Shown here: piece after piece, positions 6,427-45,825 of the stretch | Numbering within the stretch: the first letter of the stretch is position 1 | Layout of the letters: each line of letters opens with the position of its first letter | The notes under the pieces: generated by a model | The model's input: the letters and a program-made list of their open reading frames with translations, nothing else | Told to the model about the DNA's origin: nothing | The model's database searches: none | Translations under genes and position numbers: made by a program | IMG/VR virus record: IMGVR_UViG_3300037296_000138 | Coordinates: 1-61,305 of that record | Length of the DNA stretch: 61,305 nucleotides | Direction: 5' to 3' (one strand) | DNA from: a virus | Taxonomy: Duplodnaviria > Caudoviricetes

Positions 6427-7650
6427 ATGGCAATGCAGAAATTCTCCCCGATCGACTACCTCAAGATTGACGTCGCCAACAACTTTGATGGTGACCTAGA
6501 CAAGCGTGACTGGGACCAGCGCATCGACTGGTTCAACCAAAACGAAGGCATGCTCACAAGCATCCTGACCGGCAACGACAAAGTCCTCAAGACGGCCGAG
6601 GAGCCAGCCCTGGTCTACGCAGGGATGAAAGCCTTCAAGGCTGCCGAAGCGGGTGAAGCCAGTGGCTACCCAGTGTCCCTGGACGCATGCAGCTCAGGCC
6701 TGCAGCTGTTCAGCGTGCTGGTAGGCTGTGAGGAGTCCGCTAAGCTCTGTGGCATCGTGGACATCGGCCACCGTGCTGACGCCTACAGCCTGATCTATCA
6801 GGCCATGGTCAAGGAGCTCAACGAGTCCTCCAAGATCTCCCGCGGTGACTGTAAGGACGCAATCATGACTGCGTTCTTTGGCTCCACTGCAAAGCCCAAG
6901 CAGATCTTCGGTGAGGGCAAGCTGCTAGACACCTTCCACAGCACCATGGAGCTCAAGGCTCCGGGCGCATGGGAGGCCAACAAGCAGATCAAGGAGCTCT
7001 GGAAGCCCTTCGCACTCAGCCACGACTGGGTGCTGCCCGACAACTATCATGTCCACATCGACGTGATGGATATGGAGGAGCAAGCGATCCAGTTCCTTAA
7101 CCGTCCCTACGTTGTCCAGCACAAGGTCAACCGTGGAACCAAAGAGGGACGCAGCCTCCAGGCCAACTCTATTCACTCTGTCGATGGCATGGTGGTTCGT
7201 GAGATGCTGCGCCGCTGTGGCTTCAGCCGTGAAGCGATCGTTCGCATCATCAATGGGCTAAACTCCAACTCGAAATCTACCCGCCGTGCATGTGACAAGC
7301 TCGTCATGAAGCTGTGGGCTCACTATGAGAAGACTGGATTTCTATCCACACGCATCCTGGACAACCTGGACCATGACAACATGGGTCACGTTGATCCTGT
7401 GCGTATCGTCCAGATGATCAAGACACTGCCAAACAAGCCCTTCCAGGTGCTCTCGGTCCACGACTGCTTTCGCTGCTTGCCCAACTATGCAAACGACATG
7501 CGGATGCAATACAATCAGATCTTGTCAGAGATCGCAGCATCCGAGATGATGACTTCCATTGCGACGCAGATCGCTGGTCAACAGGTCACCATCAACAAGA
7601 TGAAAGACCTGAGCTCTCAGGTTCTGGAAGCTAACTACGCTCTCAGCTGA
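6427..7650 (+). CDS. N4-type RNA polymerase II subunit 2 (gp16-like)
   Basis: Motif A LDACSSGLQ, motif B RGDCKDAIMTAFFG, NSIHSVDG, motif C VHDCF. Confidence 0.95.
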   Translation: MAMQKFSPIDYLKIDVANNFDGDLDKRDWDQRIDWFNQNEGMLTSILTGNDKVLKTAEEPALVYAGMKAFKAAEAGEASGYPVSLDACSSGLQLFSVLVGCEESAKLCGIVDIGHRADAYSLIYQAMVKELNESSKISRGDCKDAIMTAFFGSTAKPKQIFGEGKLLDTFHSTMELKAPGAWEANKQIKELWKPFALSHDWVLPDNYHVHIDVMDMEEQAIQFLNRPYVVQHKVNRGTKEGRSLQANSIHSVDGMVVREMLRRCGFSREAIVRIINGLNSNSKSTRRACDKLVMKLWAHYEKTGFLSTRILDNLDHDNMGHVDPVRIVQMIKTLPNKPFQVLSVHDCFRCLPNYANDMRMQYNQILSEIAASEMMTSIATQIAGQQVTINKMKDLSSQVLEANYALS

Positions 7651-9741: not shown

Positions 9742-9941
9742 CTGATATCGGCTTCTGGGTGATGATAGCTGTCCTAGAATCCCACCCCAGTGAAGAGGCA
9801 TGCCGCGTGCGGCTGCCCATCGCTATCGAATACGCAGCAGAGCATGGCGACGAAGACGTCATCTTCTCCTGCGTCCCTGCCTCATTGGCACCCACAGAGG
9901 TGCTGCGACCCACACTTAGACCAAAATGGAATGCATTATGA
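9738..9941 (+). CDS. Hypothetical protein
   Basis: GTGA coupling. Confidence 0.55.
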   Translation: MTDIGFWVMIAVLESHPSEEACRVRLPIAIEYAAEHGDEDVIFSCVPASLAPTEVLRPTLRPKWNAL

Positions 9942-10561
9942 CTGACGTTCGCAATATGATCTGGATCCCCTTGTTCGGCGAAGCCCCCAAAGGCAAGGTT
10001 GACCTCTGGGTCAAAGACGACTCCCTGCCCAATGGTGGTGATCGTTTCCCTAACATGGAATTCCGCGAGGGCGATGCCAAACAGCCAAGCGACTGGTCCG
10101 GCGACATGCTCGACCTGTCCGACATGTCCTACGGCCTGGACGACGTGACACACTACATGTTCATCGCCGGCCCTGAGCCACTGCCTGAACCAACAGAAGA
10201 GCCTGAAGAGGTTGAGGATGAGTATAGTCCAGCCGGCCTGTCCGAAGCGCTGACCGAGGTGCGCGCCGAACTGCTGCTCAAGGTCCAGCAAGACCGCCTG
10301 CTCAAAGATGATGCTACCACGGTCTTCACCATCGGCTTTTCCGGCTATGGCGACAGCGGTGACGTTGACGAACTGTCCGGCGACGATCAGATTGACGCCT
10401 TCCTGCAGGCTGTCATGAAGGAGCATGTCCACTTCGATTGGTATAACAACGATGGCGGCGGCGGTGACATCACCTGGGACATCACCAAAGATGAAATCCT
10501 CATCAATGGCTACCAGAACGAAACCATCTCCAATTCCATCATGGCCGAGTTCGAAGTCTGA
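9938..10561 (+). CDS. Acidic protein with a C-terminal DUF6878-like domain
   Basis: FSGYGDSG and WYNNDGGGG motifs. Confidence 0.65.
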   Translation: MTDVRNMIWIPLFGEAPKGKVDLWVKDDSLPNGGDRFPNMEFREGDAKQPSDWSGDMLDLSDMSYGLDDVTHYMFIAGPEPLPEPTEEPEEVEDEYSPAGLSEALTEVRAELLLKVQQDRLLKDDATTVFTIGFSGYGDSGDVDELSGDDQIDAFLQAVMKEHVHFDWYNNDGGGGDITWDITKDEILINGYQNETISNSIMAEFEV

Positions 10562-10914
10562 TGTCCCATCCTCTGCAACACGCCATGTCCTCTGCAGCCT
10601 CCTTCGGGGGTGTTGCAGAGGATTACATCGATATCCATAATTGGTTCGATTGCACAAAAGCCCATGAGCCCACATTCCGTCACCGGGCTCTGCGGCACCA
10701 CACCCTTGGCATCTTCGAATGCGAGAAGGAATTCGGAATCTATATCACCAACTCGGATGGTAAAAAAGTTCCTGTTCGCGTCATCGGTGAGCAGCATGTC
10801 AAAGAAGACTTTTCTGGATTCATTCCTACTGTCCAGGATTGGCTCGAAGGCATCCCAGCTAAAGATTGGATGCGTCCTCGAGAGAAGAACATCACCACAA
10901 CCCAAATCCTTTAG
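10561..10914 (+). CDS. DUF6915-like His-rich protein
   Basis: HPLQHAMSS..FGG, IHNWFD.TK, HRALRHH, GEQHVKED. Confidence 0.7.
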   Translation: MSHPLQHAMSSAASFGGVAEDYIDIHNWFDCTKAHEPTFRHRALRHHTLGIFECEKEFGIYITNSDGKKVPVRVIGEQHVKEDFSGFIPTVQDWLEGIPAKDWMRPREKNITTTQIL

Positions 10915-12088: not shown

Positions 12089-12115
12089 AAGGTCGGCAGA
12101 TTGATTGCCGACCTT
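12089..12115 (+). promoter_or_regulatory. Perfect 10-bp intergenic stem-loop
   Basis: aaggtcggca-gattgat-tgccgacctt. Confidence 0.55.
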
Positions 12116-12143: not shown

Positions 12144-12344
12144 ATGGCCCATGCCGAAGCAGACTTTGTCCACGCACCCCTTTCCAAATCCGGCACGGCT
12201 CCCTCTAAGCCAAACGTGCATGTTCTCCGGGCTGATCCCAAGAATCGCCCCGTTTCTGACGAACTGTATATCCCCAATTTCCAGTCGATCTGTGCCGCCA
12301 CGTTGGGCATGATCATCTTTCTGGCCTTGACCGGCTTCTGGTAA
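12144..12344 (+). CDS. Small C-terminally anchored membrane protein
   Basis: GAGGA RBS; hydrophobic C-terminus. Confidence 0.6.
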   Translation: MAHAEADFVHAPLSKSGTAPSKPNVHVLRADPKNRPVSDELYIPNFQSICAATLGMIIFLALTGFW

Positions 12345-12383
12345 GTTGTCAGCTTGGTTCTCGCTTTCATAGAGGAGAGAACC

Positions 12384-13052
12384 ATGAAAAGTGAAGAAGC
12401 CCTTGAACAGGAACTGCAAGACAAAGGTCTTACATTTCCACGAGTTACCCCAGGCATGTTGGACGACCAAATTGCCCGGGTGCTCTACCACGTCCCTGAA
12501 GACACAACGCTAACCATCTGCACGCTCGTCCTGCAGAACGGTTACACGGTCACCGCGGAATCCGCATGTGCTGACCCTCGCAACTTCGATCCCCAGATCG
12601 GCCGCGACATCTCCTACGAGAATGCGCGCAAGAAGATCTGGCAGCTGGAGGGCTATGCCCTCAAGTCGATGCTCACCAACTACACCGAAGACCTGTCCGC
12701 TCCCGAGCATGACATGACCCGCATCGCCAAGGTCTGTCACGAGGTCAACCGTGTCTGGTGCATGATGAACGGCGATTTCAGCCAGCCCAGCTGGACGAAC
12801 GCCCCACAGTGGCAGATCGACTCTGCTCTCTTGGGTGTCCAATTCCATATGGATCACCCCGATGCCGGCGACGCCGCATCACATAATTCTTGGCTCACCC
12901 AAAAGATCAACGATGGTTGGTCCTATGGTGAAACCAAGGATCCGGAACTTAAGCAGCATCCCTGCATGGTTCCATTCGAAGAGCTTCCCGAATTCCAACA
13001 GAAGAAGGATGCTCTATTCCGATCGGTGATTCACGCTTTGCTCCCCGGCTAA
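12384..13052 (+). CDS. Phage Gp49/Sf6-gp66 family (Acb4-like) domain fused to a RyR domain
   Basis: N-terminal LTIC..VLQNGYTVTAESACADPRNFD..IG...ENARKKIWQLEGY; C-terminal HNSW...K..DGWSYG..KD...KQHPCMVPFEELP..QQKKD. Confidence 0.85.
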   Translation: MKSEEALEQELQDKGLTFPRVTPGMLDDQIARVLYHVPEDTTLTICTLVLQNGYTVTAESACADPRNFDPQIGRDISYENARKKIWQLEGYALKSMLTNYTEDLSAPEHDMTRIAKVCHEVNRVWCMMNGDFSQPSWTNAPQWQIDSALLGVQFHMDHPDAGDAASHNSWLTQKINDGWSYGETKDPELKQHPCMVPFEELPEFQQKKDALFRSVIHALLPG

Positions 13053-13078: not shown

Positions 13079-13120
13079 AAAGGCAGTGACCCCTAATAGG
13101 GTTGCTGCCTTTTTCTTTTT
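13079..13120 (+). terminator. Intrinsic terminator
   Basis: aaaggcagtgaccc-ctaata-gggttgctgccttt followed by a long T run. Confidence 0.85.
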
Positions 13121-24852: not shown

Positions 24853-27489
24853 ATGCATTACATCACGTTTACGGAGCCAGAACAGCTGACCTACGACATT
24901 GCTATTTTGGCTCCAACTCTAAACTATGATTCGATGCTCGAGAATTACGTGAAGCCATTCCTCCCTCACATGATGGAAAAGGTAGTAGCGTTTGATCTAC
25001 ATAAAGCAGGAAAGCGGACTCCAGTAGCGACCCAGAAAGAATACCTGGAAGATCTGTTGCCCGCTCTCATTCACCTCAAAGTCAAATACCTGATTGTAGC
25101 TGACGCTGAGTATTTCAAAACCCTGACCAAAAGCGGATCGGTGGACAAAGCCCTAGGCTATGTTCTGCCAAGCATCGTGGGCGACTTCCAAGTCATCTAC
25201 GTGCCCAATTACGGTCAGATCTTCTATGACCCAGATAAGACCAAGGCCAAGATCACCCAGTGCATGACAGCTTTGGTCGATCACGTGAATGCCAGCTACG
25301 TCGATCCCGGCACCGGGATTGTCCGTCATGCCGAATACCCGATGAATACAGAAGATATTGCAGCAGTGCTGCAACGTCTATTGGACATGAAAGTTCCATT
25401 GACTGCAGACATCGAAGGATTCGGATTGAAGCACTATGAGTGTGGGATCGCTACAATCTCATTCGCATGGAATAAGCATGAGGGAGTAGCATTCCCTGTC
25501 GACATTCGGGAAGCCTACGGGCCTCTTGAACCAAATGTCGAGCACGAAAGATTCTTTAACGTAGAAGTGCGAGCACTTCTGTTAGATTTCTTTCGCAAAT
25601 ACAAGGAAAATATGACGTGGCATAACATTACATTTGATGTTTATGTTTTGGTGTATCAGCTGTTTATGGAAGACCTTCTCGATACTGAGGGTCTCCTGGA
25701 TGGTCTGGACGTCATGCTATCCAATTGGGATGACACCAAGCTCATCACCTATTTGGCCACGAATTCATGTGCTGGAAACAAGCTCGGACTGAAACCTCAA
25801 TCCCAAGAATTCACCGGCAACTATGCCGAGGAAGACATTAAGGATATCCGGAAGATCAAGATTCAGGATCTGCTGGAATACAACCTCATCGACGCCCTTG
25901 CTACTTGGTTCGTAAAAGAGAAGCACTGGGACACGATGATCGAGGACCAGCAGGAGGAGATCTACCAAGGCCTCTTCAAAGACGCTGTGGTGGACATCGT
26001 CCAGATGCAGCTGACCGGTATCCCCTTCGACAGGGGTGAGGTCATCAAGGTGCAGAACGAGCTCCAGGGCGAGCAGGATGCCGCTGTGGCAGCCATGCTG
26101 AACACCCAGACCCTTGGCTCCTTCGTTCATGAGATGCGTGTCAATCACGTCATCAAAAAGAACAAGGAGTATAAGAAAAAGGTCATCACCCTGGCTGACG
26201 TAGATCCAACCAAGATCTGCTTCAATCCGGCCAGTGCTCCCCAGCTTCAGGAGCTCCTCTACGGCAAGCAATACATGGCACTTCCAGTCTTGGATCTCAC
26301 CAAGAGCAAGCTCCCTGCCACCGGCGCGGAGACCCTGGAGAAGTTGATCAACCACACCAACAACCCTGACGAGGTTGCGTTCTTGAAGGCGCTCATCGAA
26401 TACAAATCGGTGGCCATCATCTTGAACACCTTCATCCCGGCCTTCCTCCGGATGCCTATGGCGCCGGATGGTCACTACTACCTCTATGGTTTCTTCAACC
26501 TGGGGGGCACGGTGTCCGGCCGGCTCAGCAGCAACGATCCAAACCTACAGAACATTCCTGCTTCAGGAGCCACTAAGGCTAAGAAGCGGATCGCTAAGAT
26601 GATCAAACGGTGTGTCAAAGCACCCAAGGGCTTTTTGTTTTGCGGGCTCGATTTTGCATCCCTAGAGGATCGGATCTCTGCTGTTACAACCCGTGATCCT
26701 ATGAAGCTCAAGGTCTATACCGACGGCTTTGATGGTCACTGCCTTCGGGCACATGCCTACTTTGGGGACAAGATGCCTGACATCATTGGCACCTGTGTCC
26801 AGAGCGTCAATTCTATCGACAAGCTCTACAGCTCCTTGCGCCAAATGAGTAAGGCACCAACCTTCGCGCTGACCTATCAGGGAACCTATATCACCCTGAT
26901 GGCAAACTGCGGATTTTCGGAGGAGTTGGCCAAAGAGATCGAAGCCCGCTACCACGAGCTCTACGTCGTATCTGACGAGTGGGTGGCAGGTAAAATCAAC
27001 CAAGCAGGGAAAGACGGATATGTCACCGGAGCCTTTGGCTTGCGGGTCCGCACACCTTTGCTTAAGCAGGTGATCTTGGGCAACCGAGTCACCCCCTTCG
27101 AGGCGGCTGCTGAAGGACGCACCGCGGGCAATGCACTGGGTCAATCCTGGTGCTTGCTCAACTCCCGAGCTGCATCCGAATTCATGAAGAAGGTTCGGAA
27201 AAGCATCTACCGGCTGCAAATCAGGCCATGCGCTCATATCCATGACGCCCAGTATTTCCTGATCCCGGATGACATGGAGGTCATCACCTGGATGAACGAA
27301 CATCTAGTGAAGGCTGTCCAATGGCAAGAACACCCTGACATCGCCAACGATGATGTCAAACTGGGTGGGGAGCTCTCGATCTTCTACCCTGACTGGTCCA
27401 CCGAAATGACGATACCGAATGGTGCCGATCAGACAGAAATTGAAACCCTAGCGACTGAGCATTTCGAGAAATACTGCATCGCTGCATAG
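24853..27489 (+). CDS. Family A DNA polymerase (N4 gp39-like)
   Basis: DIE exonuclease motif, GTVSGRLSS..PNLQN, DFASLE, RQMSKAPTFALTYQG, IHDA. Confidence 0.96.
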   Translation: MHYITFTEPEQLTYDIAILAPTLNYDSMLENYVKPFLPHMMEKVVAFDLHKAGKRTPVATQKEYLEDLLPALIHLKVKYLIVADAEYFKTLTKSGSVDKALGYVLPSIVGDFQVIYVPNYGQIFYDPDKTKAKITQCMTALVDHVNASYVDPGTGIVRHAEYPMNTEDIAAVLQRLLDMKVPLTADIEGFGLKHYECGIATISFAWNKHEGVAFPVDIREAYGPLEPNVEHERFFNVEVRALLLDFFRKYKENMTWHNITFDVYVLVYQLFMEDLLDTEGLLDGLDVMLSNWDDTKLITYLATNSCAGNKLGLKPQSQEFTGNYAEEDIKDIRKIKIQDLLEYNLIDALATWFVKEKHWDTMIEDQQEEIYQGLFKDAVVDIVQMQLTGIPFDRGEVIKVQNELQGEQDAAVAAMLNTQTLGSFVHEMRVNHVIKKNKEYKKKVITLADVDPTKICFNPASAPQLQELLYGKQYMALPVLDLTKSKLPATGAETLEKLINHTNNPDEVAFLKALIEYKSVAIILNTFIPAFLRMPMAPDGHYYLYGFFNLGGTVSGRLSSNDPNLQNIPASGATKAKKRIAKMIKRCVKAPKGFLFCGLDFASLEDRISAVTTRDPMKLKVYTDGFDGHCLRAHAYFGDKMPDIIGTCVQSVNSIDKLYSSLRQMSKAPTFALTYQGTYITLMANCGFSEELAKEIEARYHELYVVSDEWVAGKINQAGKDGYVTGAFGLRVRTPLLKQVILGNRVTPFEAAAEGRTAGNALGQSWCLLNSRAASEFMKKVRKSIYRLQIRPCAHIHDAQYFLIPDDMEVITWMNEHLVKAVQWQEHPDIANDDVKLGGELSIFYPDWSTEMTIPNGADQTEIETLATEHFEKYCIAA

Positions 27490-27806: not shown

Positions 27807-28793
27807 ATGAAACAGGGCATCACCAACAACTCAGGCTTCAGCCTATCCATGGCTGTATGGCTCGCTCACGATGACTATGATGGTCCATCGGAAGCAGCGC
27901 CACAGGGAGAGGTGATCTCGGTCACCACCTTGCTGGTCCCAACTCGTATCTTCGTGCTCCAGCAGCGGCTCCCAGAGGGCACAGGGCTGCCTGACGTCAC
28001 AGACCGTATCGCGGCTCGTTTCGGACAGGCTATCCACGCTGACATCGAGAAGACCTGGCGCCAGCACTATGCCACGGCAATGCGCAAGCTGGGTATGAGC
28101 CAGAAGATGATCGACAAGATCCGGATCAACCCGGAGAAGGTCGAGCCTGGTGAAATTCCTGTTTACCTGGAGCAACGCTACTATCGCGTTTTCGACGGGG
28201 TCGTAATCTCGGGCAAGTTCGATGAGATCATCAACGGACAACTGAACGATACCAAGACCTCGTCGACCTATTCCTACATGAATGGAACCAACGAAGAGAG
28301 CCACACGAAGCAGCTCAGCGCCTATCGTTGGATCTCCCCTGAAAAGGTCACTTCTGAAATTGGCAACATCAACCATATCTTCACAGATTGGCAGCGGATG
28401 ATGACCAAGCAGAACCCGAACTACCCCAAGCATCGGGTGACCGAGGTGTCCTACCAGCTGCAAAGCTTGAAGGAGACTGAATCCTGGATCAAAGCCAAAC
28501 TGGATGAGATCCGCGCCAACGTCGACCTCCCCGAGGAGCAAGTCATCCGCTGCACGCCTGACGAGCTGTGGATGTCTCCCCCGCAATACAAATACTATGC
28601 TGATCCGGCCAAGGCTGACTTGGGCGGACGGTCCACCAAAAACTGCGATTCTATGCAGGAAGCAATGACCCACATGGCGACCAAGGGTAAAGGCAAGGGC
28701 AAGATCATTGTTGTCCCGTCTGAACCCAAGCGCTGTGGCTACTGCCCTGTCTACGAGATCTGCACACAGAAAGACGAGTATTTCCATGATTGA
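27807..28793 (+). CDS. PD-(D/E)xK Cas4-like exonuclease (N4 gp42-like)
   Basis: LEQR, ISGKFD, DTKT, QLSAY, C-terminal CGYC....IC. Confidence 0.85.
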   Translation: MKQGITNNSGFSLSMAVWLAHDDYDGPSEAAPQGEVISVTTLLVPTRIFVLQQRLPEGTGLPDVTDRIAARFGQAIHADIEKTWRQHYATAMRKLGMSQKMIDKIRINPEKVEPGEIPVYLEQRYYRVFDGVVISGKFDEIINGQLNDTKTSSTYSYMNGTNEESHTKQLSAYRWISPEKVTSEIGNINHIFTDWQRMMTKQNPNYPKHRVTEVSYQLQSLKETESWIKAKLDEIRANVDLPEEQVIRCTPDELWMSPPQYKYYADPAKADLGGRSTKNCDSMQEAMTHMATKGKGKGKIIVVPSEPKRCGYCPVYEICTQKDEYFHD

Positions 28794-30924
28794 TCTGACA
28801 ACTGTATCCCACCATCCGGCGATTGAAGAACTCGTAGACGTGCTCTGCAACAAGACCCAGAACACCGATCGGGGTTTCTTCCGTGTCGAAGTGGCATACT
28901 TCCTTGCGAAGATGGCAGGCACCATGCGTGCCTCCATCCTGACCGAAGACCGGGGCGAGATCCCGGTCAACGTCTATGCGCTTGCGCTGGGCACCTCCGG
29001 CTATGGTAAGGGCCACAGCGTCCATATCATCGAGAACCAATTCATGAGCGGCTTCAAACGCCGGTTCATGGAGGACACCTTCAACGTGATCTCTGATGGT
29101 CACCTCTGGAAGATGGCACTCGAGCGGGCGGCGATCTCCGGTAAGGAGGAGCAGGCTGAGAAGGATTCCCTAGATAAGGAATTCATCCAGGCTGGTAACT
29201 TCACTTTCACGTTCGACTCCGGCACTGCTCCCGCGGTGAAGCAACTGCGCCACAAGCTGCTCATGGCAGACGTCGGTGCAATCAACCTGCAGATCGACGA
29301 GATTGGTTCCAATCTGGTCGGCAACACCGAAGTCCTGAACGTGTTCCTTGAGCTCTACGATCAGGGGATGGTCAACAACAAGCTGACCAAGAACACCACC
29401 GAGAACGTGCGCGGCCGGGAGATCGACGGTAAGACACCGACGAACGCTCTGCTGTTCGGCACCCCGTCCAAGCTCTTGGATGGTGGTATCGTCGAGGATA
29501 ACTTCTACTCGTTCCTCGATACGGGCTACGCCCGCCGGTGCCTGTTTGGTTGGGGCCAGGAGCAGCGCAACACAGACGATGCAACACCTGCTGAAATCTA
29601 CGCGCGCTTGGTTTCTGGAACCAACAAGACGACTACGACAAAATGGTCCACTCACTTTTCGTTGTTGGCCGATCCGGCCAAGTTCGGATGGGAAATGACC
29701 GTTGACGACGTGGTTGGCATCGAGCTGCTGACCTACAAAATTGAATGTGAACGGCACGCTGCCACCTACCCAGAGCACGAAGAGATCCGGAAGGCAGAAA
29801 TGTCCCACCGGTATTTCAAAGCTCTGAAGCTTGCCGGCGCACTGGCATTCGTAGACGAGTCGTCGGAGATCGAAATGGATCACCTGCACGCGGCTATGAA
29901 ATTGGTGGAAGAGTCAGGCGAAAGCTTTCAGCGCCTGATGACCCGCGAGAAAACCTACGTCAAATTGGCTAAATATATCGCGGCCACCAAAGAAGATCTG
30001 ACCCATGCTGACCTGTTCGAGGCATTGCCTTTCTACAAAGCGAGCCAGACAGCACGGACAGAGATCATGACCTTGGCTACGGCCTGGGGCTACAAACAGA
30101 ACATCATCATCCAGAAGACATTCGTCGATGGTATTGAGTTCTTCCGTGGCTCCACTCTTGAGGAGACCAATCTCGACGAGATCCTCATCACCTACTCGGA
30201 CCATTTCGCATATAACTATGTGACCGAGCGGGCTCCATTCGCATCCCTGCACGAGCTGACCCAAGCGCCAGGCATGAATTGGACCAACCACGGTTTCCAG
30301 GATGGTCACCGGTTGGAGGAGAAGGTCATCCCTGGATTCAACATGATCGCTATCGACGTCGACGGCGGCGTAGATATGGAACAGGTCCACGAGCTCATGA
30401 AGGATTATACTTTCATGACCTATACGACCAAGAGCCATACCGATGGCGATCACCGTTTCCGTCTGATGATCCCGATCAGCTATGTGCTGGAACTGGATTA
30501 TGACGACTACAAGGAGTTCATGAATTCGTTCATGGAATGGCTCCCCTTCACCAGCGACGAAGGTGCCAATCAGCGCTCTAAGAAATGGGAAACCTATGCC
30601 GGCGGCACCTACCACTCGAACGAGGGCTTGCTCCTCGATCCTCTTCGGTTTGTCCCAAAGACAACGAAGAACGAGCAGCACCGTGAATCCATGGGGCAGC
30701 TGGAAAGCTTGGACAATCTGGAACGCTGGTTTGCAGGGCGCATCGCCTCGGGCAACCGGAACAACCAGATGATCAAGTTCGCCTATGCTCTGGTGGACAG
30801 CGGGATGACGCTCCATGAAGTCGAGCAGAACGTGATCGCCTTCAACCAAAAGCTCTCGAACGGTCTGACCGAACAGGAGCTCCGTAGCACCATTTTCCAG
30901 AGTGTTGCGAAGCGTTATGACTAG
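28786..30924 (+). CDS. DNA primase/ATPase (N4 gp43, dns-like)
   Basis: SGYGKG, IDEIG, IDVD, TKSH, PriCT-like GNRNN. Confidence 0.9.
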   Translation: MIDLTTVSHHPAIEELVDVLCNKTQNTDRGFFRVEVAYFLAKMAGTMRASILTEDRGEIPVNVYALALGTSGYGKGHSVHIIENQFMSGFKRRFMEDTFNVISDGHLWKMALERAAISGKEEQAEKDSLDKEFIQAGNFTFTFDSGTAPAVKQLRHKLLMADVGAINLQIDEIGSNLVGNTEVLNVFLELYDQGMVNNKLTKNTTENVRGREIDGKTPTNALLFGTPSKLLDGGIVEDNFYSFLDTGYARRCLFGWGQEQRNTDDATPAEIYARLVSGTNKTTTTKWSTHFSLLADPAKFGWEMTVDDVVGIELLTYKIECERHAATYPEHEEIRKAEMSHRYFKALKLAGALAFVDESSEIEMDHLHAAMKLVEESGESFQRLMTREKTYVKLAKYIAATKEDLTHADLFEALPFYKASQTARTEIMTLATAWGYKQNIIIQKTFVDGIEFFRGSTLEETNLDEILITYSDHFAYNYVTERAPFASLHELTQAPGMNWTNHGFQDGHRLEEKVIPGFNMIAIDVDGGVDMEQVHELMKDYTFMTYTTKSHTDGDHRFRLMIPISYVLELDYDDYKEFMNSFMEWLPFTSDEGANQRSKKWETYAGGTYHSNEGLLLDPLRFVPKTTKNEQHRESMGQLESLDNLERWFAGRIASGNRNNQMIKFAYALVDSGMTLHEVEQNVIAFNQKLSNGLTEQELRSTIFQSVAKRYD

Positions 30925-31027
30925 CATTCGCTAGGCATAAATGCTAAATCTCTAGTCCAACCTGGGGCCAAGTGGATGCTGTTTTTCGGGCAACATTTGG
31001 CCTCATAATCACCCTGAAAGGAAACCT

Positions 31028-31756
31028 ATGTCAGATGACATTAACGACCAGTTGGTCTTGATCTCAGGTGAATCGGCAACCGGCAAATCAGCAAGTCTTC
31101 AGCACATCCCGAACGGAGAACGGGTCATGTATCTGAACTGCGAATCGGGCAAACGCTTGCCCTTTGCCAACAAGTTCGATTCCTACAAGATCACAGATCC
31201 TCTGCAGGTCTATGAGGCGTTCGCTCACGCCAACCAGAACCCCGACTACGACGTCATCGTGGTCGATACGCTAACCTTCCTCATGGATATGTATGAGTCG
31301 ACCTACGTGATCGATTCTGAAAATACCATGAAGGCCTGGGGCGACTATGCTCAGTTCTTCAAGAACCTGATGCAGGTCTACGTTGCACCCAGCGACAAGT
31401 CGGTGATCTTCTTGGCTCACACCCGGGAAGACCATGACGAGAAGGCTATGCGGATGAAAACCGCGGTGCCCATCAAAGGGGCTCTGAAGAACAACGGCAT
31501 TGAGTCATATTTCTCTACCGTGGTCGCCACCAAAAAAGTGGAGATCAAGCACCTCGAAGATCAAGACCCTGCCTTGTGCCGGATCTCCGATCATGACCGG
31601 TTGCTAGGCTACAAGCACGTCTTCCAGACACAGCTGACAGCCGATACAATCGGTGAGCGTATTCGTTCCCCTATGGGTTTGTTCAACACGAACCAAGCCT
31701 TTATGGACAACGATGCCAACCTCCTGCTGGATCACCTGAAGGGCTACTACGCCTGA
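31028..31756 (+). CDS. Sak4-like P-loop ATPase (N4 gp44-like)
   Basis: GESATGKS, LNCE, IVVDT, IRSPMGLF. Confidence 0.88.
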   Translation: MSDDINDQLVLISGESATGKSASLQHIPNGERVMYLNCESGKRLPFANKFDSYKITDPLQVYEAFAHANQNPDYDVIVVDTLTFLMDMYESTYVIDSENTMKAWGDYAQFFKNLMQVYVAPSDKSVIFLAHTREDHDEKAMRMKTAVPIKGALKNNGIESYFSTVVATKKVEIKHLEDQDPALCRISDHDRLLGYKHVFQTQLTADTIGERIRSPMGLFNTNQAFMDNDANLLLDHLKGYYA

Positions 31757-31793
31757 TCCGGCAACCACTTCCCCAACACAGAAAGAGCTTACC

Positions 31794-32534
31794 ATGAGCA
31801 ACAATGCTTTTGCTTCACACTCCACCGAAGGCTTCGAAAAAGAGAAGGACGTCCTGGGCGGCGGAGGCACAGTGCCCTCCAACATCTACAAGGCGACCGT
31901 CGAGATGGCCTATGTGGTTAACGCTTCGGCGTCCAAGTCCCAGGGTGTTGCTTTCATCCTGAAGCTGGACAGCGGCATGACAGTCCGCGAGACCGTCTAT
32001 GTCCTGAACCGCCAGGGTGAGAACACCTATCCTGACAAGAAGGATGCAACCAAGAAGCACCTGCTTCCCGGCTGGCAGACCATCGACTCCCTCTGCATGA
32101 TGGCCACCGGCCTCGGCCTGACCGATCAGGACATGGAAGAGAAATCCGTTCTGATCTACGACTTCGATGCAGGCAAAGAAGTCCCCAAGAAGGTTCAGGT
32201 CATCACGTCCCTGCTGGGCAAGGAAGTCGGCGCTGCGATCCTCGAGCAGACCGTCGACAAGACCAAGCAGAACGAGTCCACCAAGGCTTACGAGCCAACA
32301 GGTGAAACCCGTGACGAGAACACGGTCGACAAGTTCTTCCATGCCGACACGATGCGCACGACCTCCGAATGCATCGAAGGCATCGACGAAGCCATCTTCG
32401 CTCCAAAGTGGTTGGAGAAGAACGAAGGCAAGAAGAAGAACAAGTCCAAGGGCAAGGCTGGCAAAGCCGGTGCTCCAGGTGGTGCCGGCGGCGGTGCGCC
32501 TAAGCCAAAAGAGTCCTTGTTCGGTAAGAAGTAA
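31794..32534 (+). CDS. N4-type SSB / late transcription activator (gp45-like)
   Basis: D.LGGG, LPG, REEN-like DKFF segment, C-terminal SLFGKK. Confidence 0.9.
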   Translation: MSNNAFASHSTEGFEKEKDVLGGGGTVPSNIYKATVEMAYVVNASASKSQGVAFILKLDSGMTVRETVYVLNRQGENTYPDKKDATKKHLLPGWQTIDSLCMMATGLGLTDQDMEEKSVLIYDFDAGKEVPKKVQVITSLLGKEVGAAILEQTVDKTKQNESTKAYEPTGETRDENTVDKFFHADTMRTTSECIEGIDEAIFAPKWLEKNEGKKKNKSKGKAGKAGAPGGAGGGAPKPKESLFGKK

Positions 32535-32543
32535 AAACCTAAG

Positions 32544-32573
32544 AAGGCTCCTGTGATAAGCGGGAGCCTTTTT
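32544..32573 (+). terminator. Intrinsic terminator
   Basis: aaggctcctg...cgggagcctt followed by ttt. Confidence 0.8.
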
Positions 32574-32574
32574 C

Positions 32575-33666
32575 ATGTTGCTATCTCTACCCACTCGAGT
32601 CCAGATCACTAAGAAAAAATTCTTTGCCCTGAACTTGAACCACTATCGCAACACCCACTTCACGCAGCTGAACAATGCAAAGATAGCATTCAAATCTGCG
32701 GTCCAGAAACGTGTATGTGCCCTACCAGAATTGCACGGTCAGATTCACTTCACCTATATCCTTTATCCTAAGACCCGTCAGAAATGCGATGTCGCCAATG
32801 TCTGTTCGATCGTAGATAAATTCTTTTCAGATGCTCTGGTTGAGTTTGGTATTATACCAGACGACAATTACGATCACTTGCCTCAAGTGATTTACCAGTT
32901 TGGATCCATAGATAAGGCTAATCCCCGTGTTGATGTTTTGATAGAAACATATCCAGATTACCTCGCTCGAATCACTCAACCCCAAATCAAGGAGCAAGAT
33001 CCTATGCAGATCACTCTCAACGAAACCGAGATCAAACGTGCCATCTCCGAGTTCATCACGAACCGGATGGAAGTTGATCTGAACACCAATGTCGACATCG
33101 ACCTGAAGGCCACCCGTGGCTCCGAAGGTTTCACGGCGTCGTTTGATGTTCTCCCGCGGGTCAAGCACACCGAAGCCCGTCTGTCCGGCGAGGCCCAGGT
33201 GGCTGCCCCTTTGGACAAACCGTCGGAGACCTCCAACGTGGGCTCTACCGCGGATACGCCAGAGCCCGTGAAAGCAGCCCCCAAGGCTGTGGCGAAGTCT
33301 TCTTTGCCAGCTACGAAGCCTGTCGCAGAGCCCTCGACCACTGAAGAGGCTCCTGCAGCCGACAAAGAGGTCGCTGGCACCACGACGAAAGCTTTTGCTG
33401 GTCAGTCGTCCGGTGAGAAGCCAAAGAGCCTGTTCGCCGCCAAGGCTGCAGCTCAGGAGGCTGAACAGCCGACCGAAGAGTCCGAAGCCAACATCTCCTC
33501 CGGGGATGAACGCACGGACCCTACCGAAGCTGCCGACACTCCGATCCCTTCGGAGCCTTCGACTGAAGAAGTCGATGAGACCGAGCAGCAGCAAGAAGAA
33601 GAAGAAGATGCGCCAGCACCCGAGCCGGCCAAGAAGCCACTGTTTAGCTTCGCCAAGAAGGCCTAA
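32575..33666 (+). CDS. RusA-like Holliday junction resolvase fused to a low-complexity domain
   Basis: LNLN.YRN, DVAN...DKFFSDAL.....DDN, NPRVD; acidic Pro/Ala-rich C-terminal half. Confidence 0.8.
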   Translation: MLLSLPTRVQITKKKFFALNLNHYRNTHFTQLNNAKIAFKSAVQKRVCALPELHGQIHFTYILYPKTRQKCDVANVCSIVDKFFSDALVEFGIIPDDNYDHLPQVIYQFGSIDKANPRVDVLIETYPDYLARITQPQIKEQDPMQITLNETEIKRAISEFITNRMEVDLNTNVDIDLKATRGSEGFTASFDVLPRVKHTEARLSGEAQVAAPLDKPSETSNVGSTADTPEPVKAAPKAVAKSSLPATKPVAEPSTTEEAPAADKEVAGTTTKAFAGQSSGEKPKSLFAAKAAAQEAEQPTEESEANISSGDERTDPTEAADTPIPSEPSTEEVDETEQQQEEEEDAPAPEPAKKPLFSFAKKA

Positions 33667-33851
33667 TGCGCCAGTTCGCAAAAAACGTTAAGATCTTTCT
33701 CGTGATCTTAGCGTTGGCTGCGGCAGGTGCAGTGATCTACGCCGCTGTCGCAGCCGCCATATTCCTCATAGTCCCCATCGCTATCATTGCGGGACTATGG
33801 TTCGTGGCAAAGGTCTTCGCCTACGAGGATCCAGACGACAAGCCTCCCTGA
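33666..33851 (+). CDS. Small two-TM membrane protein
   Basis: TAATG coupling; hydrophobic. Confidence 0.7.
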   Translation: MRQFAKNVKIFLVILALAAAGAVIYAAVAAAIFLIVPIAIIAGLWFVAKVFAYEDPDDKPP

Positions 33852-33870
33852 GCATTTCTAAGCTCTAATT

Positions 33871-33905
33871 AAAGCTCCCCCTGATTTATTAGGGGGAGCT
33901 TTTTT
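33871..33905 (+). terminator. Intrinsic terminator
   Basis: aaagctccccct-gatttatt-agggggagcttt followed by ttt. Confidence 0.85.
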
Positions 33906-33920
33906 ATATGTGAGAACATC

Positions 33921-34475
33921 ATGAAAAATAAACGTGGCACTTCAATAATGCGACCTGAGTCGATGGTTAAATTGACCCAACAGAATTCAGAGCGGATGCA
34001 TCAAACCAAAATGCAGAAGGTCAGATTGGGAACACCAATCCTAAATCATAGCTTCTCTGTTGTCTGGGGATACTTCGCCAAGGATATGGAGATCAATGAA
34101 ATGAAACCATATCCATTCACAACAGCATCCCGATTGCTGGGCGTTGATTCTATCGACGAACGAACAGATGCAGACGAAAATCAATATATGGGAACCAGAT
34201 CAGATAGGGAAACTGCTATCATATTCACTGATGGTATCTGGCATGTTAGTTACGACACCATCCAGAAAGACCTCAGCGAGTGTGCAGATTTTATCATGTC
34301 ACCTGTGTCCGGCCCTGAATCGGTTTTCAACATGCTGACTGTGCTCTTGCAGGACAAACGGTTCACCACATATGCGCAGAATAGCGGGTTTGATTACCGC
34401 GGTGATACCACACCGTTGGGTCTACTCAAGACCTACTACGACACCTATGCCCATACCGATCGTCGGAGAACGTAA
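33921..34475 (+). CDS. Hypothetical protein
   Basis: 184-aa ORF between two terminators; start uncertain. Confidence 0.65.
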   Translation: MKNKRGTSIMRPESMVKLTQQNSERMHQTKMQKVRLGTPILNHSFSVVWGYFAKDMEINEMKPYPFTTASRLLGVDSIDERTDADENQYMGTRSDRETAIIFTDGIWHVSYDTIQKDLSECADFIMSPVSGPESVFNMLTVLLQDKRFTTYAQNSGFDYRGDTTPLGLLKTYYDTYAHTDRRRT

Positions 34476-34509
34476 AAGCCCTACCGGGAGTCCAATCCGG
34501 TAGGGCTTT
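34475..34509. terminator. Bidirectional terminator at the middle/late convergence
   Basis: aaagccctaccgg-gagtccaat-ccggtagggcttt. Confidence 0.8.
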
Positions 34510-34575
34510 CCTGTCATGCCATCGTCATCGCCCTAATCGAGAATCACCCCAACAATCAGAACACCTCATATATAA

Positions 34576-37500
34576 TCAATTGAAGAGATTATACCAGGGG
34601 TTAAGTGACGGTGCCCGCTCGAGCATGCTCAGGCCAATGGATCCATCCAAACGACCACCGGCCCAGACCGATGCGAAGTTGTCTGTGATCGGCGAACCAA
34701 TCCCAATATCCGGAGTGACCATCGGGAACAGGAACGTGCTCATCAGGGCGCGCGCTGGGTTATCAATGATCATCCGGCGAGCCACCTTCATCGAGCGGAT
34801 CTTAAATGCCCAGAACCAAGTGGCTCCCATCTTCTCAGCATAGGTCCGGGTCCGGCCTGGCAGCAGGTTAAAGTTCACGAATTCACTGAACACCTCGATC
34901 AGTGCTTCGTCTGCAGTCTTGCCCTTCTTCTGGATCAGGTGATCGTAGTAGATCGCCTTGGCAACGAAGTCGCCATACTGCACCGCTTTAGAGAGACCCT
35001 GGAACAGTGCCGTGTCCTTGGTCAGCAGCAGGTTCTTACCCACCACCTGCACACCGTCAGGCATCTTAGCCACTGCAGCTTCGAGCCAATCCACATACTT
35101 GCCCTGGGTCAGAGCCTCATCCACGTCTGTGACGCCCTCAGAGATGGTAGAGAAGGCACCGGCTTCGATCAGCGGGTGAATGCTCATCCGAGAATTGGCG
35201 TCCTGTAGGGCCGTCTTACGAGCCTCCAGGCGCTTGAGCACATGCGGCAGATTTGTCGACGCAGCAATCTCAGCATCCAGCTCGATGATCTTCTGCACGT
35301 TCTTTAGATATGCGTCGATCTCAACCAGCTTGGTCCGTGTGCCTTTGGCAATAAATACTGGATCCACACCAGAAGCTACCAGCTGCAGGATGTTCGATGC
35401 GGCGTTCATGGCCGGCACGAATACCGAGCGGATCACGATGGTCTGCTTGGCAACCGTCACAGCTGTCTGAACCGTCTTCTCCGCGGTGACCAGATACTTG
35501 AAGGCGTTGGCGCCAAACATGACTGTCGTCGTATCCCGGATAGCAGATGCAACCCGCTCATCCATCCGAGTGTCCCCGGTGAATGCATCAGCCACAGACG
35601 GATCACGGTATCCCACAATGTTGTCGATCATGTCCTTACGGACCATGAACTTACCATCAGGATAGTTTTCCTTGATGTAGTTCTGCATCTCGATCGGAAC
35701 AGCAGCCCAAGAATCACGGTATACAGCGTCCTTCATCTTTGGATTGTTGAGCCAGATATACTCACCCATCCGCTTGTCTTTCTGATCCTTGAGCATGATC
35801 TCAAGGGACCGATCGACCAGCATCTCGTTATACTCTTGTGCCAGCTTCTCCTCGTTTTGACGGCCGGCCCAAGCCCCAATCATTTCGCCCAGATTGGTGT
35901 TCTTGTTCATTGAGACCAGGACGTCGTTATCGACCCCAAACTCATATGCTACAACCACACCACCCTGGCCGAATACTGGCAGCATGGCACCTTCTACGAT
36001 GCCCTGCTTATTTGTCATCTTGATGCGATCATTGAGATGACCGGCTTCCTTGCCGAGGACTGAACCAGCAGTCAGGCTGCCCAACGTGCGGCCAGTCAAA
36101 GGATCAACCCCATTCACCGAAGTCTGCACGGTCTGCATAATCCCCTGGGAATATGTATTCCGGCCGGCCACCGACGAGAAGTAGTAGGACCGCTTGTCCG
36201 CAGCATACGAAGACCCGATCGAGTTATGCGCGCGCAGCTTCGTGTAGCCACGCTGCATCATTGTGCTGTGCTCGGAATCCTTGGCCAGAACCAAGCTGAG
36301 ACCACCCTGGCTCTCCGATGGGATGTGCCCTTTCCAGCCATTCAGCTCGGCTTCCACCGTGTTGATTTTGGCATGCTCTGCAGTGCGCAGGGTATCCAGA
36401 TAGTGAACCATGAACTCGAGGGCTTCGCTCTCGTTCTCGATCAGGTCTGACATCATCTTGCGTTCATTGGTGCTCAACCGATCTAGTGCATAGAGGCTCA
36501 CCAGCTTGTCGATCAGATCCACGATTGTATCGTCGGACAGATCAATAGCCTTCTTCTCGAGCTTCTCGTTCAGCAGCATAGAGATTGCATTGGCATTGCG
36601 CAGCTGGTTCACAGACGAGCCCTTGCCCATCATGTGATCAGCCAGCTCACCACCCTTGCGCTGATACTCCTTGAAGATGGCTGCCGGCACCAATGCCTTC
36701 AGCTTACCTTCCATGCTGGAGATCTCTGTCGCCAGCACTGCAGGGGTCTTGATCATCTTCATGAGCGAGGACACCTGGTAGCCGCGCAGAGCAGCCAGAT
36801 CCGACTGACCCATGGCCTTGAACATCGCTGTCCACTGGCCTTCGGAGACCTTACCCTTGAACTTAGATTTGAAGATCTTAGGCAGCGTTTCCCGGAATGC
36901 CTGACGCACCGCGGAGACCTGAGCCTTCACCTTGTCGACCAGCAGATAGACCGAAGCGTTCTCGTCAGTGATGCCGATGATCTCACCGATCATGTCCCGC
37001 ATAGGCTTCCACATGTTTGAGTCATTGGTCAGGGAGATCACCTCTTTGCCAAGCAGCGCACCGCGCTCCTTGTTCAGCAAAGCGGCTACCAAGCCGGCGC
37101 TCTGATACAAGCTTTTGGTTGCAACATTCTTCGCCGATTGAGCCTTCCGATCAGAGAAGGAACCAACCCACTCGGTAGCCGTTTGCAGGGCCAAGGAAGC
37201 TTTGCCGTCACCGCGGGAGAGCATCTCCTGGCTCTTTGCCAGCACATAGTTCTCCGCCTGGTCCTCAAGTGAGCTCAGCTTCACAGCCAGCTTATCAAGG
37301 GCGGCCGATACATTCTTGTTCTTGGTTCCCTCATCAATGCTCATGCCCAGCGCAGTCATGCCGGAATTTGCAACCGATGTGAGGAAACCATCCACACTTG
37401 TTGTGTCGACGTCCAGTGCTTTCGGCATGTCGATCTTCTCGAGCACCGCGCGCAGCTTCTCGTTGGTCTGGCTCAGAGCCACAAACGATGTCAGCAGGTT

Positions 37501-45804: not shown

Positions 45805-45825
45805 AGGGGGATTCTCCAAAAGATC

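What the first reader, a model, noticed from the sequence alone, without database searches (positions are those of the whole stretch)
12384..13052. Acb4-like sponge domain fused to a RyR domain: candidate dual immune-signal sponge
Seen: residues ~1-100 carry the full Phage_gp49_66 (PF13876) signature and residues ~110-222 the RyR (PF02026) signature, in one frame. Known, from memory and needing verification: the anti-CBASS cGAMP sponge Acb4 belongs to this family, phage sponges are often fused to one another, and RyR repeat domains can bind adenine nucleotides. Inference: the phage RyR domain is an undescribed sponge or sensor for another immune messenger, making this a two-signal counter-defence protein.
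Basis: partly seen in the sequence, partly recalled or inferred. Interest (0 to 1): 0.85.

Follow-up and report, generated by a model that had tools for sequence, protein, structure and literature searches.

The report
Fused Acb4–RyR phage signal sponge
An N4-like phage encodes one small protein that joins two modules already known to soak up bacterial alarm nucleotides, so it most likely blocks both CBASS and Thoeris immunity, and it is a new example of a known trick, not a new mechanism.

Summary
Window 12384-13052 (+) is a 222-aa ORF with PF13876 at residues 21-96 (E 4.8e-27) and PF02026 RyR at 166-209 (E 4.2e-12). It has a strong ribosome-binding site and a terminator hairpin. The AF2 model (pLDDT 93) matches solved SPO1 Acb4 and RyR Repeat12 structures.

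Two 2026 preprints show that phage RyR domains bind or cleave Thoeris cyclic ADP-ribose signals (RyDEP, PMC13232231; RyR Tad, 10.64898/2026.06.04.730250).

The C-domain here is 49% identical to RyR Tad and keeps all six of its ligand residues. The N-domain is 35% identical to the tested Acb4 domain of phage Ab09 gp59. It is predicted to form an Acb4-like tetramer (0.91 against control 0.00).

The same fusion occurs in 11 of 63 homologue clusters and 79 of 965 matching phage records. Fused sponges such as Acb4-Tad2 and Acb4-Sequestin are published.

Verdict: a probable dual anti-CBASS and anti-Thoeris sponge, and a new member of a known kind. I found no printed description of this particular pairing. 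Moderate-low interest.

The parts
12384..13052 (+). CDS of the 222-aa Acb4-RyR fusion protein (stop codon included)
12372..12379 (+). Shine-Dalgarno-like GAGGAGAG, ending 4 nt before the ATG
   Evidence: read from the sequence
12444..12671 (+). PF13876 (Acb4 family) domain, residues 21-96. The whole N-domain with its flanking helices is about residues 1-99
12681..12701 (+). Short linker (about residues 100-106). It is the only stretch of the model with lower confidence (10-residue blocks with pLDDT 78 and 64)
12702..13040 (+). RyR Repeat12-like four-helix domain, about residues 107-219. The Pfam core is nt 12879-13010. Ligand residues are H167, W170, K185, H192, K208 and D209
13079..13112 (+). 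Terminator-like hairpin (14 pairs) followed by a T run, 27 nt after the stop codon
   Evidence: Such sites are not enriched over shuffles in this region (2 found, 1.9 expected)

Best explanation
The gene encodes a two-module signal sponge of an N4-like phage. Shown by sequence and model: an Acb4-family domain (about residues 1-99), a short linker, and a RyR Repeat12-like domain (about residues 107-219). Inferred from the characterised relatives: the N-domain assembles into an Acb4-type homotetramer. The pockets between its protomers sequester CBASS cyclic dinucleotides, namely 3'3'-cGAMP and probably c-di-AMP isomers, as in Acb4 homologues of phages of Gram-negative hosts. The C-domain pairs into dimers and holds Thoeris 1''-3'/1''-2' gcADPR in the pocket lined by H167, W170, K185, H192, K208 and D209. 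This keeps ThsA-type effectors inactive. One early or middle gene would thereby blunt both CBASS and type I/VI Thoeris. Sequestration is more likely than cleavage for the RyR module.
For: Both Pfam families score far above their cut-offs. The AF2 model has mean pLDDT 93. Foldseek against the PDB returns SPO1 Acb4 9e4w (TM by target 0.65-0.76, rmsd 2.3-3.9 A over 72-75 columns, E about 1e-3) and bacterial and human RyR Repeat12 structures (6uhi, E 2e-4). The C-domain is 49% identical (50/103, E 3e-33) to Pectobacterium phage CB1 gp68, which is RyR Tad. RyR Tad binds 1''-3' gcADPR with a KD of 43 nM and rescues phage from type I Thoeris (passages). All six residues whose mutation weakened RyR Tad binding (H129, W132, K147, H154, K170, D171) align to H167, W170, K185, H192, K208 and D209. 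These six are at least 90% conserved across the 63-row alignment. The RyDEP residues H75, W78, H100 and D117 fit the same residues at a constant offset of +92. That offset agrees with the 35tm_A match of query 128-213 to chain 36-122 (paper section). The N-domain is 35% identical (27/78, E 1e-17) to the Acb4 domain of Ab09 gp59, a protein shown to bind 3'3'-cGAMP and 2'3'-cAA. All eight Acb4 homologues tested in the Acb4 paper bound 3'3'-cGAMP (section 8). Four copies of residues 1-105 score 0.91 against a best of three controls of 0.00. That mark was reached by 20 of 30 proteins solved as pairs of one chain and by 1 of 23 solved as single chains. The runs agree in at least 96% of contacts and the partner pLDDT is at least 90. 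The contacts (beta-sheet 34-63; helix end 87-98 against loop 50-54) match the two interfaces described for SPO1 Acb4 (section 7). The RyR module is also found fused to a Tad2-like domain (2 clusters) and to the Acb2/Tad1 hairpin (2 clusters). Acb4-Tad2 and Acb4-Sequestin fusions are shown experimentally to block two systems.
Against: No binding or rescue was measured for this protein. By sequence alone the N-domain hits solved Acb4 only at E 0.23. Of the nine SPO1 Acb4 ligand contacts that fall inside that alignment, F62 and I66 are kept (F68, I72), F48 stays aromatic (Y54), and N63, whose contact is through the backbone, becomes D69. K36, E49, V56, Y57 and T70 are changed (T42, T55, C62, A63, I76). 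The guanine-reading pair K36/E49 is therefore lost, so ligand preference is uncertain. The tetramer pass may be from memory of 9e4w. It also used four copies and my own 19-row alignment, unlike the calibration. In RyR Tad the unrelated N-domain had no activity, so an N-terminal module can be purely structural. Two of the eight RyDEP homologues tested did not bind cADPR signals. The gene lies outside the published N4-like anti-signalling hotspot. The host and its defence systems are unknown.
Confidence: 0.7

Rival explanations
1. Only the RyR module is an active sponge. The Acb4-like N-domain has become an oligomerisation scaffold that multimerises the RyR module and no longer binds cyclic dinucleotides.
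For: The guanine-specific contacts K36 and E49 of SPO1 Acb4 are T42 and T55 here. In RyR Tad a different N-domain takes part in dimerisation and has no anti-defence activity of its own. Ab09 Acb4-Sequestin binds 3'3'-cGAMP only weakly.
Against: All eight Acb4 homologues tested bound 3'3'-cGAMP despite their divergence. The adenine-pocket motif NF-x-x-x-IGRD is kept, as is the stacking aromatic Y54. T55 is also T in the active Ab09 domain. The PF13876 score is high (94.7 bits).
Confidence: 0.12
2. The RyR module is a RyDEP-type inverting glycosidase that cleaves 2'/3' cADPR to ADPR. The protein would then be a sponge-enzyme hybrid.
For: The RyDEP catalytic dyad H75/D117 has counterparts H167/D209, and W78 and H100 are kept as well.
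Against: The same residues are present in the non-catalytic sponge-type homologues. None of the eight homologues tested cleaved the signals. The closest characterised relative, CB1 gp68, releases intact gcADPR. No match to PF04095 or PF13793 was found in the record. I chose those two families from memory as proxies for the NARP1 enzymes that flank RyDEP. The record is only 83% complete.
Confidence: 0.1
3. The RyR module binds a non-immune adenine nucleotide such as ATP, ADP or ADPR, and acts as a metabolic sensor or regulator rather than as a counter-defence.
For: Human RyR3 Repeat12 binds ATP analogues and ADP (PDB titles).
Against: Six of eight phage homologues bound cADPR signals and two rescued phage in vivo. 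This module is fused to four different sponge families or domains. There is no effector or enzymatic partner domain in the ORF.
Confidence: 0.05
4. The fusion is an artefact: a frameshift or a chimeric metagenomic assembly has joined two adjacent genes.
For: Split, adjacent forms do exist: Klebsiella phage pKP-BM327-1.1 has overlapping 103-aa and 158-aa genes, and locus L027 has neighbouring ORFs.
Against: The same fused architecture is in 10 other clusters, including a 79%-identical 224-aa protein on a 75,969-base contig. It is also in cultured phages. The linker is confidently modelled as a continuation of a helix.
Confidence: 0.01

Closest known systems
Acb4 of Bacillus phage SPO1 (PDB 9e4w), founder of PF13876
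   Same: Same Pfam family and the same alpha-beta-beta-beta-alpha core by Foldseek. The predicted tetramer uses the interfaces described for Acb4. The NF-x-x-x-IGRD loop and the stacking aromatic are conserved.
   Different: Sequence similarity is very distant (E 0.23). The guanine-reading residues K36 and E49 are replaced. SPO1 Acb4 is a stand-alone 96-aa protein, whereas here a 120-aa second domain follows.
RyR Tad (Pectobacterium phage vB_PatP_CB1 gp68), 10.64898/2026.06.04.730250
   Same: The RyR-like C-domain is 49% identical with all six binding residues kept. Both are two-domain proteins of N4-like (Schitoviridae) phages.
   Different: The gp68 N-domain has no PF13876 match and does not align with the N-domain here. 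gp68 sits next to the primase inside the hotspot, while this gene lies about 16 kb upstream of the primase.
RyDEP (mycobacteriophage DyoEdafos gp78), PMC13232231; probably PDB 35tm
   Same: Same PF02026 clade of phage proteins. The H/W/H/D residues are at the same spacing. 35tm_A matches at E 9.1e-9 with the single sequence and 1.5e-15 with the profile.
   Different: RyDEP is a stand-alone glycosidase inside a NARP1 operon. This protein is fused to Acb4, is closer to the sponge-type homologue, and its record has no match to my two proxy NARP1 families.
Characterised fused sponges: Ab09 gp59 Acb4-Sequestin and Pasteurella phage Pm86 Acb4-Tad2
   Same: An N-terminal Acb4 domain is followed by an anti-Thoeris sponge in one ORF. 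The Acb4 domain is 35% identical to that of Ab09 gp59.
   Different: The partner domain here is RyR Repeat12-like (PF02026), not Sequestin (PF21825) or Tad2 (PF11195).
Uncharacterised proteins with the same architecture: Vibrio phage vB_ValP_FGH UKH48585 (222 aa) and Salmonella phage Det7 gp42 and its Kuttervirus homologues (290 aa)
   Same: PF13876 followed by PF02026 in one ORF. Identity is 45.5% over 98% of the query for the Vibrio protein, and 49% (C-domain) and 38% (N-domain) for Det7.
   Different: They are annotated as hypothetical or 'RyR domain-containing' proteins. The Kuttervirus form has an insert of roughly 80-90 aa between the domains. The phage families differ.

Membership tests
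Acb4 / PF13876 cyclic-dinucleotide sponges | Match to the family profile above the curated cut-off | tested here: met
   94.7 bits against 27, E 4.8e-27, profile 1-81 of 82
Acb4 / PF13876 cyclic-dinucleotide sponges | dsRBD-like fold of solved Acb4: three antiparallel strands flanked by helices | tested here: met
   The model has H23-29, E30-36, E44-50, E55-60 and H70-99. Foldseek hits on 9e4w chains have TM by target 0.65-0.76.
Acb4 / PF13876 cyclic-dinucleotide sponges | Homotetramer with pockets between protomers | tested here: met
   Prediction only. The score is 0.91 against a best control of 0.00. The mark was reached by 20 of 30 solved one-chain pairs and 1 of 23 single chains. Runs agree in at least 96% of contacts and pLDDT is at least 90. 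A like complex (9e4w) is solved, so the pass may be from memory.
Acb4 / PF13876 cyclic-dinucleotide sponges | Ligand-contact residues of SPO1 Acb4 | tested here: inconclusive
   Of nine mapped contacts, F62 and I66 are kept, F48 stays aromatic, and N63 (a backbone contact) becomes D. K36, E49, V56, Y57 and T70 are changed. These residues also vary in the active Ab09 domain.
Acb4 / PF13876 cyclic-dinucleotide sponges | Binds 3'3'-cGAMP or other CBASS signals and rescues phage | not testable with these tools
   Needs biochemistry and plaque assays
Phage RyR-domain proteins (RyDEP / RyR Tad, PF02026) | Match to PF02026 above the curated cut-off | tested here: met
   46.6 bits against 27.4; 62 PDB sequences matched at E <= 1, the 60 listed being RyR or RyR-domain proteins
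Phage RyR-domain proteins (RyDEP / RyR Tad, PF02026) | Four-helix Repeat12-like fold | tested here: met
   Helices 107-128, 142-157, 163-176 and 203-219. Foldseek hits are 6uhi, 6uag, 3nrt and the human RyR3 R12 structures.
Phage RyR-domain proteins (RyDEP / RyR Tad, PF02026) | Ligand residues H, W, K, H, K, D of RyR Tad, and H75, W78, H100, D117 of RyDEP | tested here: met
   H167, W170, K185, H192, K208 and D209 are invariant in the four-way alignment and indexed. They are at least 90% conserved in 63 rows.
Phage RyR-domain proteins (RyDEP / RyR Tad, PF02026) | Back-to-back dimer through helices alpha1 and alpha4 | not tested
Phage RyR-domain proteins (RyDEP / RyR Tad, PF02026) | Binds or cleaves 2'/3' cADPR | not testable with these tools
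   Needs EMSA, SPR, TLC or HPLC
Fused phage sponges (Acb4-Tad2, Acb4-Sequestin) | Two signal-binding modules from different families in one ORF | tested here: met
N4-like anti-signalling hotspot (primase to virion RNA polymerase) | The gene lies between the primase-polymerase and the virion RNAP | tested here: not met
   The primase-like ORF is at 28708-30924 and the 3747-aa vRNAP at 34576-45819 (-). The gene is at 12384-13052, between genes of unknown function and an HNH/RNR block.

The most novel reading that the evidence does not exclude
In this lineage the RyR module may be catalytic. It keeps the RyDEP H/D dyad, which would make the protein a sponge-enzyme hybrid: a tetrameric dinucleotide sponge carrying gcADPR glycosidase modules. 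Alternatively, it may bind a Thoeris-family signal other than gcADPR, such as His-ADPR or N7-cADPR. More broadly, the Repeat12 module appears to be a general plug-in partner. Here it is seen fused to Acb4, Tad2-like and Acb2/Tad1-hairpin domains, with at least two independent fusion or fission events.
Probability: 0.12. Interest if true: 0.55.

Novelty: new member of a known kind. Interest (0 to 1): 0.3.

Why it matters
If confirmed, one 222-aa protein would disarm two of the most widespread signalling defences, CBASS and Thoeris. It would add the RyR Repeat12 module to the set of sponge modules that phages combine. The practical value is modest. It gives a compact candidate for dual-specificity binding studies and an annotation for about 80 deposited phage genes now called hypothetical, among them Kuttervirus phages such as Det7. 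It also shows that such genes in N4-like phages are not confined to the published hotspot. The underlying mechanisms are already published.

Tried and rejected
- A PDB sequence search with the C-terminal domain alone was not run. I therefore never saw a residue-by-residue alignment to 35tm_A. Its identity with RyDEP, and the +92 mapping, rest on the coordinates, the residue spacing and the name of the entry.
- The profile search with A2 raised 35tm_A to E 1.5e-15, but its alignment was not among the five printed.
- The scan of IMG/VR for relatives is pattern-limited and returned no other fused copy. My ORF check of its 28 loci gave 24 RyR-only ORFs, 1 split neighbouring pair (L027), 2 Acb4-only ORFs and 1 odd ORF (L035). 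It therefore says little about how common the fusion is.
- The RyR-domain tree (63 rows, 117 columns) is poorly resolved: 18 of 60 inner branches are open and the bootstrap had not settled. I take from it only that well-supported branches force at least 2 changes of the Acb4-RyR label (6 by parsimony). The four Acb4-only hits were left out because they lack the domain.
- I considered and rejected the idea that the gene belongs to the published N4 hotspot (membership test not met).
- I looked for further sponge or NAD-salvage genes in the record. There were none for PF11195, PF21825, PF04095 or PF13793. The PF21825 search also rang in no control genome, so it is uninformative.
- Promoter and terminator scans are at chance level for the region.
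- Supplementary tables of the four papers are closed. Acb4 Table S3, RyDEP Supplementary Table 1 (homologues H1-H8) and the Pfam fusion lists behind 10.1101/2025.07.12.664507 may already list Acb4-RyR fusions.

Full report
**What is there**

The window is a single IMG/VR virus record of 61,305 bases that CheckV rates 83% complete. It has the hallmarks of an N4-like (Schitoviridae-type) phage:
- a 3,747-aa ORF on the minus strand (34576-45819), the size of a virion RNA polymerase;
- a small RNA-polymerase subunit (6427-7650, PF00940);
- a family A DNA polymerase (24853-27489);
- a PriCT-containing primase-like ORF (28708-30924);
- an SF1 helicase.

The only nucleotide-level similarity to deposited phages around the target is in the ribonucleotide reductase gene. 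There the best records are Rhodobacter and roseobacter phages, 58 records in all, each covering at most 14% of the 3-kb query. This hints at an alphaproteobacterial host, but only weakly.

**The observation**

ORF 12384-13052 (+) gives 222 residues.
- PF13876 matches residues 21-96 at E 4.8e-27, 94.7 bits against a cut-off of 27.
- PF02026 (RyR) matches residues 166-209 at E 4.2e-12, 46.6 bits against 27.4.
- A six-frame search of the whole record finds each family once, in the same open frame and without stops.
- PHROGs places the two halves in different families, all of unknown function.
- GAGGAGAG lies at 12372-12379, just before the ATG.
- A 14-pair hairpin with a T run follows the stop at 13079-13112. 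Such sites are not enriched over shuffles in this region.

**Structure**

AlphaFold2 with a 63-row alignment gives mean pLDDT 93.0 and pTM 0.66.
- The N-domain runs helix, three strands, long helix (H23-29, E30-36, E44-50, E55-60, H70-99).
- A short linker of lower confidence follows.
- The C-domain has four helices (107-128, 142-157, 163-176, 203-219).

Foldseek against the PDB returns both expected folds:
- the Bacteroides/human RyR Repeat12 chimera 6uhi (E 2e-4) and other RyR R12 entries;
- several chains of 9e4w, SPO1 Acb4 with 3'3'-cGAMP (E 9.5e-4 and weaker; TM by target 0.65-0.76; rmsd 2.3-3.9 A over 72-75 columns).

Only 2 matches have E <= 0.001. This is expected for a two-domain query against single-domain targets.

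**What is already known**

- The Acb4 paper (10.1101/2024.12.30.630793; passages, sections 7 and 8) states that SPO1 Acb4 belongs to PF13876 and is a tetramer binding four 3'3'-cGAMP. All eight homologues tested bound 3'3'-cGAMP, and only those from phages of Gram-negative hosts also bound 3'3'-cAA. Some homologues carry 'additional extensions'.
- PMC13232231 (outline, sections 2, 4, 5 and 22, and passages) describes RyDEP. This mycobacteriophage RyR-domain glycosidase cleaves 2'/3' cADPR using H75 and D117, with W78 and H100 in the pocket. Six of eight homologues bound the signals and none of the eight cleaved them. Two of them, from a Ruegeria phage and a Pectobacterium phage, are nanomolar sponges that rescue phage from Thoeris.
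- 10.64898/2026.06.04.730250 (outline, passages and section 8) describes RyR Tad, which is gp68 of the N4-like Pectobacterium phage CB1. Its C-terminal RyR-like domain sponges 1''-3' gcADPR (KD 43 nM), and its unrelated N-domain has no activity. Binding depends on H129/W132, K147/H154 and K170/D171. The same paper describes Ab09 gp59, an Acb4-Sequestin fusion that is a tetramer and counters type I Thoeris and, partly, type II-A CBASS.
- 10.1101/2025.07.12.664507 (passages only) shows that an Acb4-Tad2 fusion blocks both Thoeris and CBASS. It also used fusion to Acb4 or Tad2 as a way to discover Sequestin.

The RyR module, however, is no longer undescribed.

**How this protein compares: the C-domain**

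I fetched CB1 gp68 from its GenBank record.
- Its RyR domain is 49% identical to residues 114-216 here (50/103, E 3e-33).
- Its N-domain has no PF13876 match and does not align with the N-domain here.
- All six RyR Tad binding residues align to H167, W170, K185, H192, K208 and D209.
- These positions are at least 90% conserved across the 63-row alignment.
- The RyDEP residues fit the same positions at a constant offset of +92. That offset agrees with the phmmer match of query 128-213 to residues 36-122 of PDB 35tm_A, a 139-aa 'RyR domain-containing protein' that I take to be RyDEP.

The H/D dyad is also present in the non-catalytic homologues. Sequence therefore cannot separate sponge from enzyme. 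I favour a sponge for two reasons: the nearest characterised relative is one, and none of the eight tested homologues cleaved.

**How this protein compares: the N-domain**

The N-domain is 35% identical (27/78, E 1e-17) to the Acb4 domain of Ab09 gp59.

Against solved SPO1 Acb4 the sequence match is weak (E 0.23) but gapless over 46 columns. Nine published contact residues match the letters of the chain at an offset of one, so I could map them.

| SPO1 Acb4 contact | Residue here | Outcome |
|---|---|---|
| F62 | F68 | kept |
| I66 | I72 | kept |
| F48 | Y54 | aromatic kept |
| N63 (backbone contact) | D69 | changed side chain |
| K36 | T42 | changed |
| E49 | T55 | changed |
| V56 | C62 | changed |
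| Y57 | A63 | changed |
| T70 | I76 | changed |

The active Ab09 domain shares W/T/C at the positions of Y54/T55/C62. This domain therefore resembles the Gram-negative-phage type of Acb4. The exact ligand range is open.

Four copies of residues 1-105 were predicted to assemble with a score of 0.91 against a best of three controls of 0.00.
- The mark was reached by 20 of 30 proteins solved as pairs of one chain and by 1 of 23 solved as single chains.
- The runs agree in at least 96% of contacts, and the partner pLDDT is at least 90.
- The contacts reproduce the two interfaces described for SPO1 Acb4: the beta-sandwich (residues 34-63) and the 'joint' between the end of the long helix (87-98) and the beta2-beta3 loop (50-54).
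- Because 9e4w is solved, this pass shows likeness and may be from memory. The job also differed from the calibration, with four copies and my own alignment.

**Distribution**

Among 63 clusters with E <= 1e-5 out of 177 candidates:

| Architecture | Clusters |
|---|---|
| PF13876 + PF02026 (query included) | 11 |
| RyR + Acb2/Tad1 hairpin | 2 |
| RyR + Tad2-like | 2 |
| PF13876 only | 4 |
| RyR without another named sponge domain | 44 |

The domain names of the two minor fusion types were checked.

In the phage collection, 965 records match and 79 hold at least 80% of the query in one place.
- Most of these are Kuttervirus (Ackermannviridae) phages such as Det7, whose gp42 is a 290-aa fused form.
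- Vibrio phage vB_ValP_FGH has a 222-aa fused form.
- The N4-like Klebsiella phage pKP-BM327-1.1 carries the two modules as overlapping neighbouring genes.

A tree of the RyR domain (63 rows) is weakly resolved, but its well-supported branches force at least two changes of the Acb4-RyR label. The modules have therefore been joined or split more than once.

**Context**

The neighbours are small genes of unknown function (DUF6915, phrog_4657, phrog_36463), an HNH endonuclease, a ribonucleotide reductase, and an ATPase with a VWA/metallopeptidase pair. The gene lies about 16 kb upstream of the primase, outside the published primase-to-vRNAP hotspot. In this window that hotspot (about 30.9-34.6 kb) holds an AAA_24 protein and three ORFs with no Pfam match. 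No Tad2, Sequestin or second Acb4/RyR copy was found in the record.

**Has the pairing been described?**

No paper in the searched library holds both PF02026 and PF13876. The only relevant paper with both 'Acb4' and 'RyR' is the RyR Tad preprint, and its passages describe Acb4-Sequestin, not Acb4-RyR. A search for 'ryanodine' with 'Thoeris' added nothing further. The supplementary tables, which may list such fusions, were closed.

**Verdict**

This is a real gene and a real fusion. It is very probably a dual counter-defence sponge: cyclic dinucleotides through an Acb4-type tetramer, and gcADPR through a RyR Tad/RyDEP-type module. It is a new member of the known class of fused phage sponges. 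Its partner combination appears unreported in print but is common in deposited genomes. All functional statements are inferred from homologues, and no measurement exists for this protein.

Noticed in passing
proteins P0018, P0027, P0055, P0057: The phage RyR Repeat12 module is also fused to an Acb2/Tad1 hairpin domain at its C-terminus (186 and 200 aa) and to a Tad2-like domain (241 and 239 aa). These are further sponge-sponge combinations that I did not see described in the passages I read.
   Followed up: partly
window 12144-12344 (+): A 66-aa ORF lies directly upstream of the fusion gene. Its C-terminus is hydrophobic (read by eye), so it could be a small membrane protein. No family search was run on it.
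   Followed up: no
window 12089-12115 (+): A perfect 10-bp inverted repeat with a 7-nt loop, read by eye, sits between the upstream gene block and the small ORF. It may be a transcript boundary or an N4-type promoter hairpin.
   Followed up: no
window 30924-34576: The region that corresponds to the published N4-like anti-signalling hotspot (primase to vRNAP) holds an AAA_24 protein (31028-31756) and three ORFs of 246, 363 and 184 aa with no Pfam match. These are candidates for unknown counter-defence genes.
   Followed up: partly
L035:5794-6318: A 174-aa ORF in a 62-kb viral contig matches the first half of the RyR domain (40% over 62 aa). Directly after it comes a 27-aa stretch that is 78% identical to the end of the Acb4 domain. 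The order is reversed and the modules are truncated, which suggests a recombination remnant.
   Followed up: no
L002:4974-5758 (Klebsiella phage pKP-BM327-1.1): The Acb4-family gene (103 aa) and the RyR gene (158 aa) are separate but overlap by 4 nt. This is a split counterpart of the fusion in another Schitoviridae phage, located next to a tRNA cluster.
   Followed up: partly
window 10561-10914 and 9926-10561 (+): Two upstream genes match DUF6915 (E 2.6e-43) and, weakly, DUF6878. Both functions are unknown.
   Followed up: no
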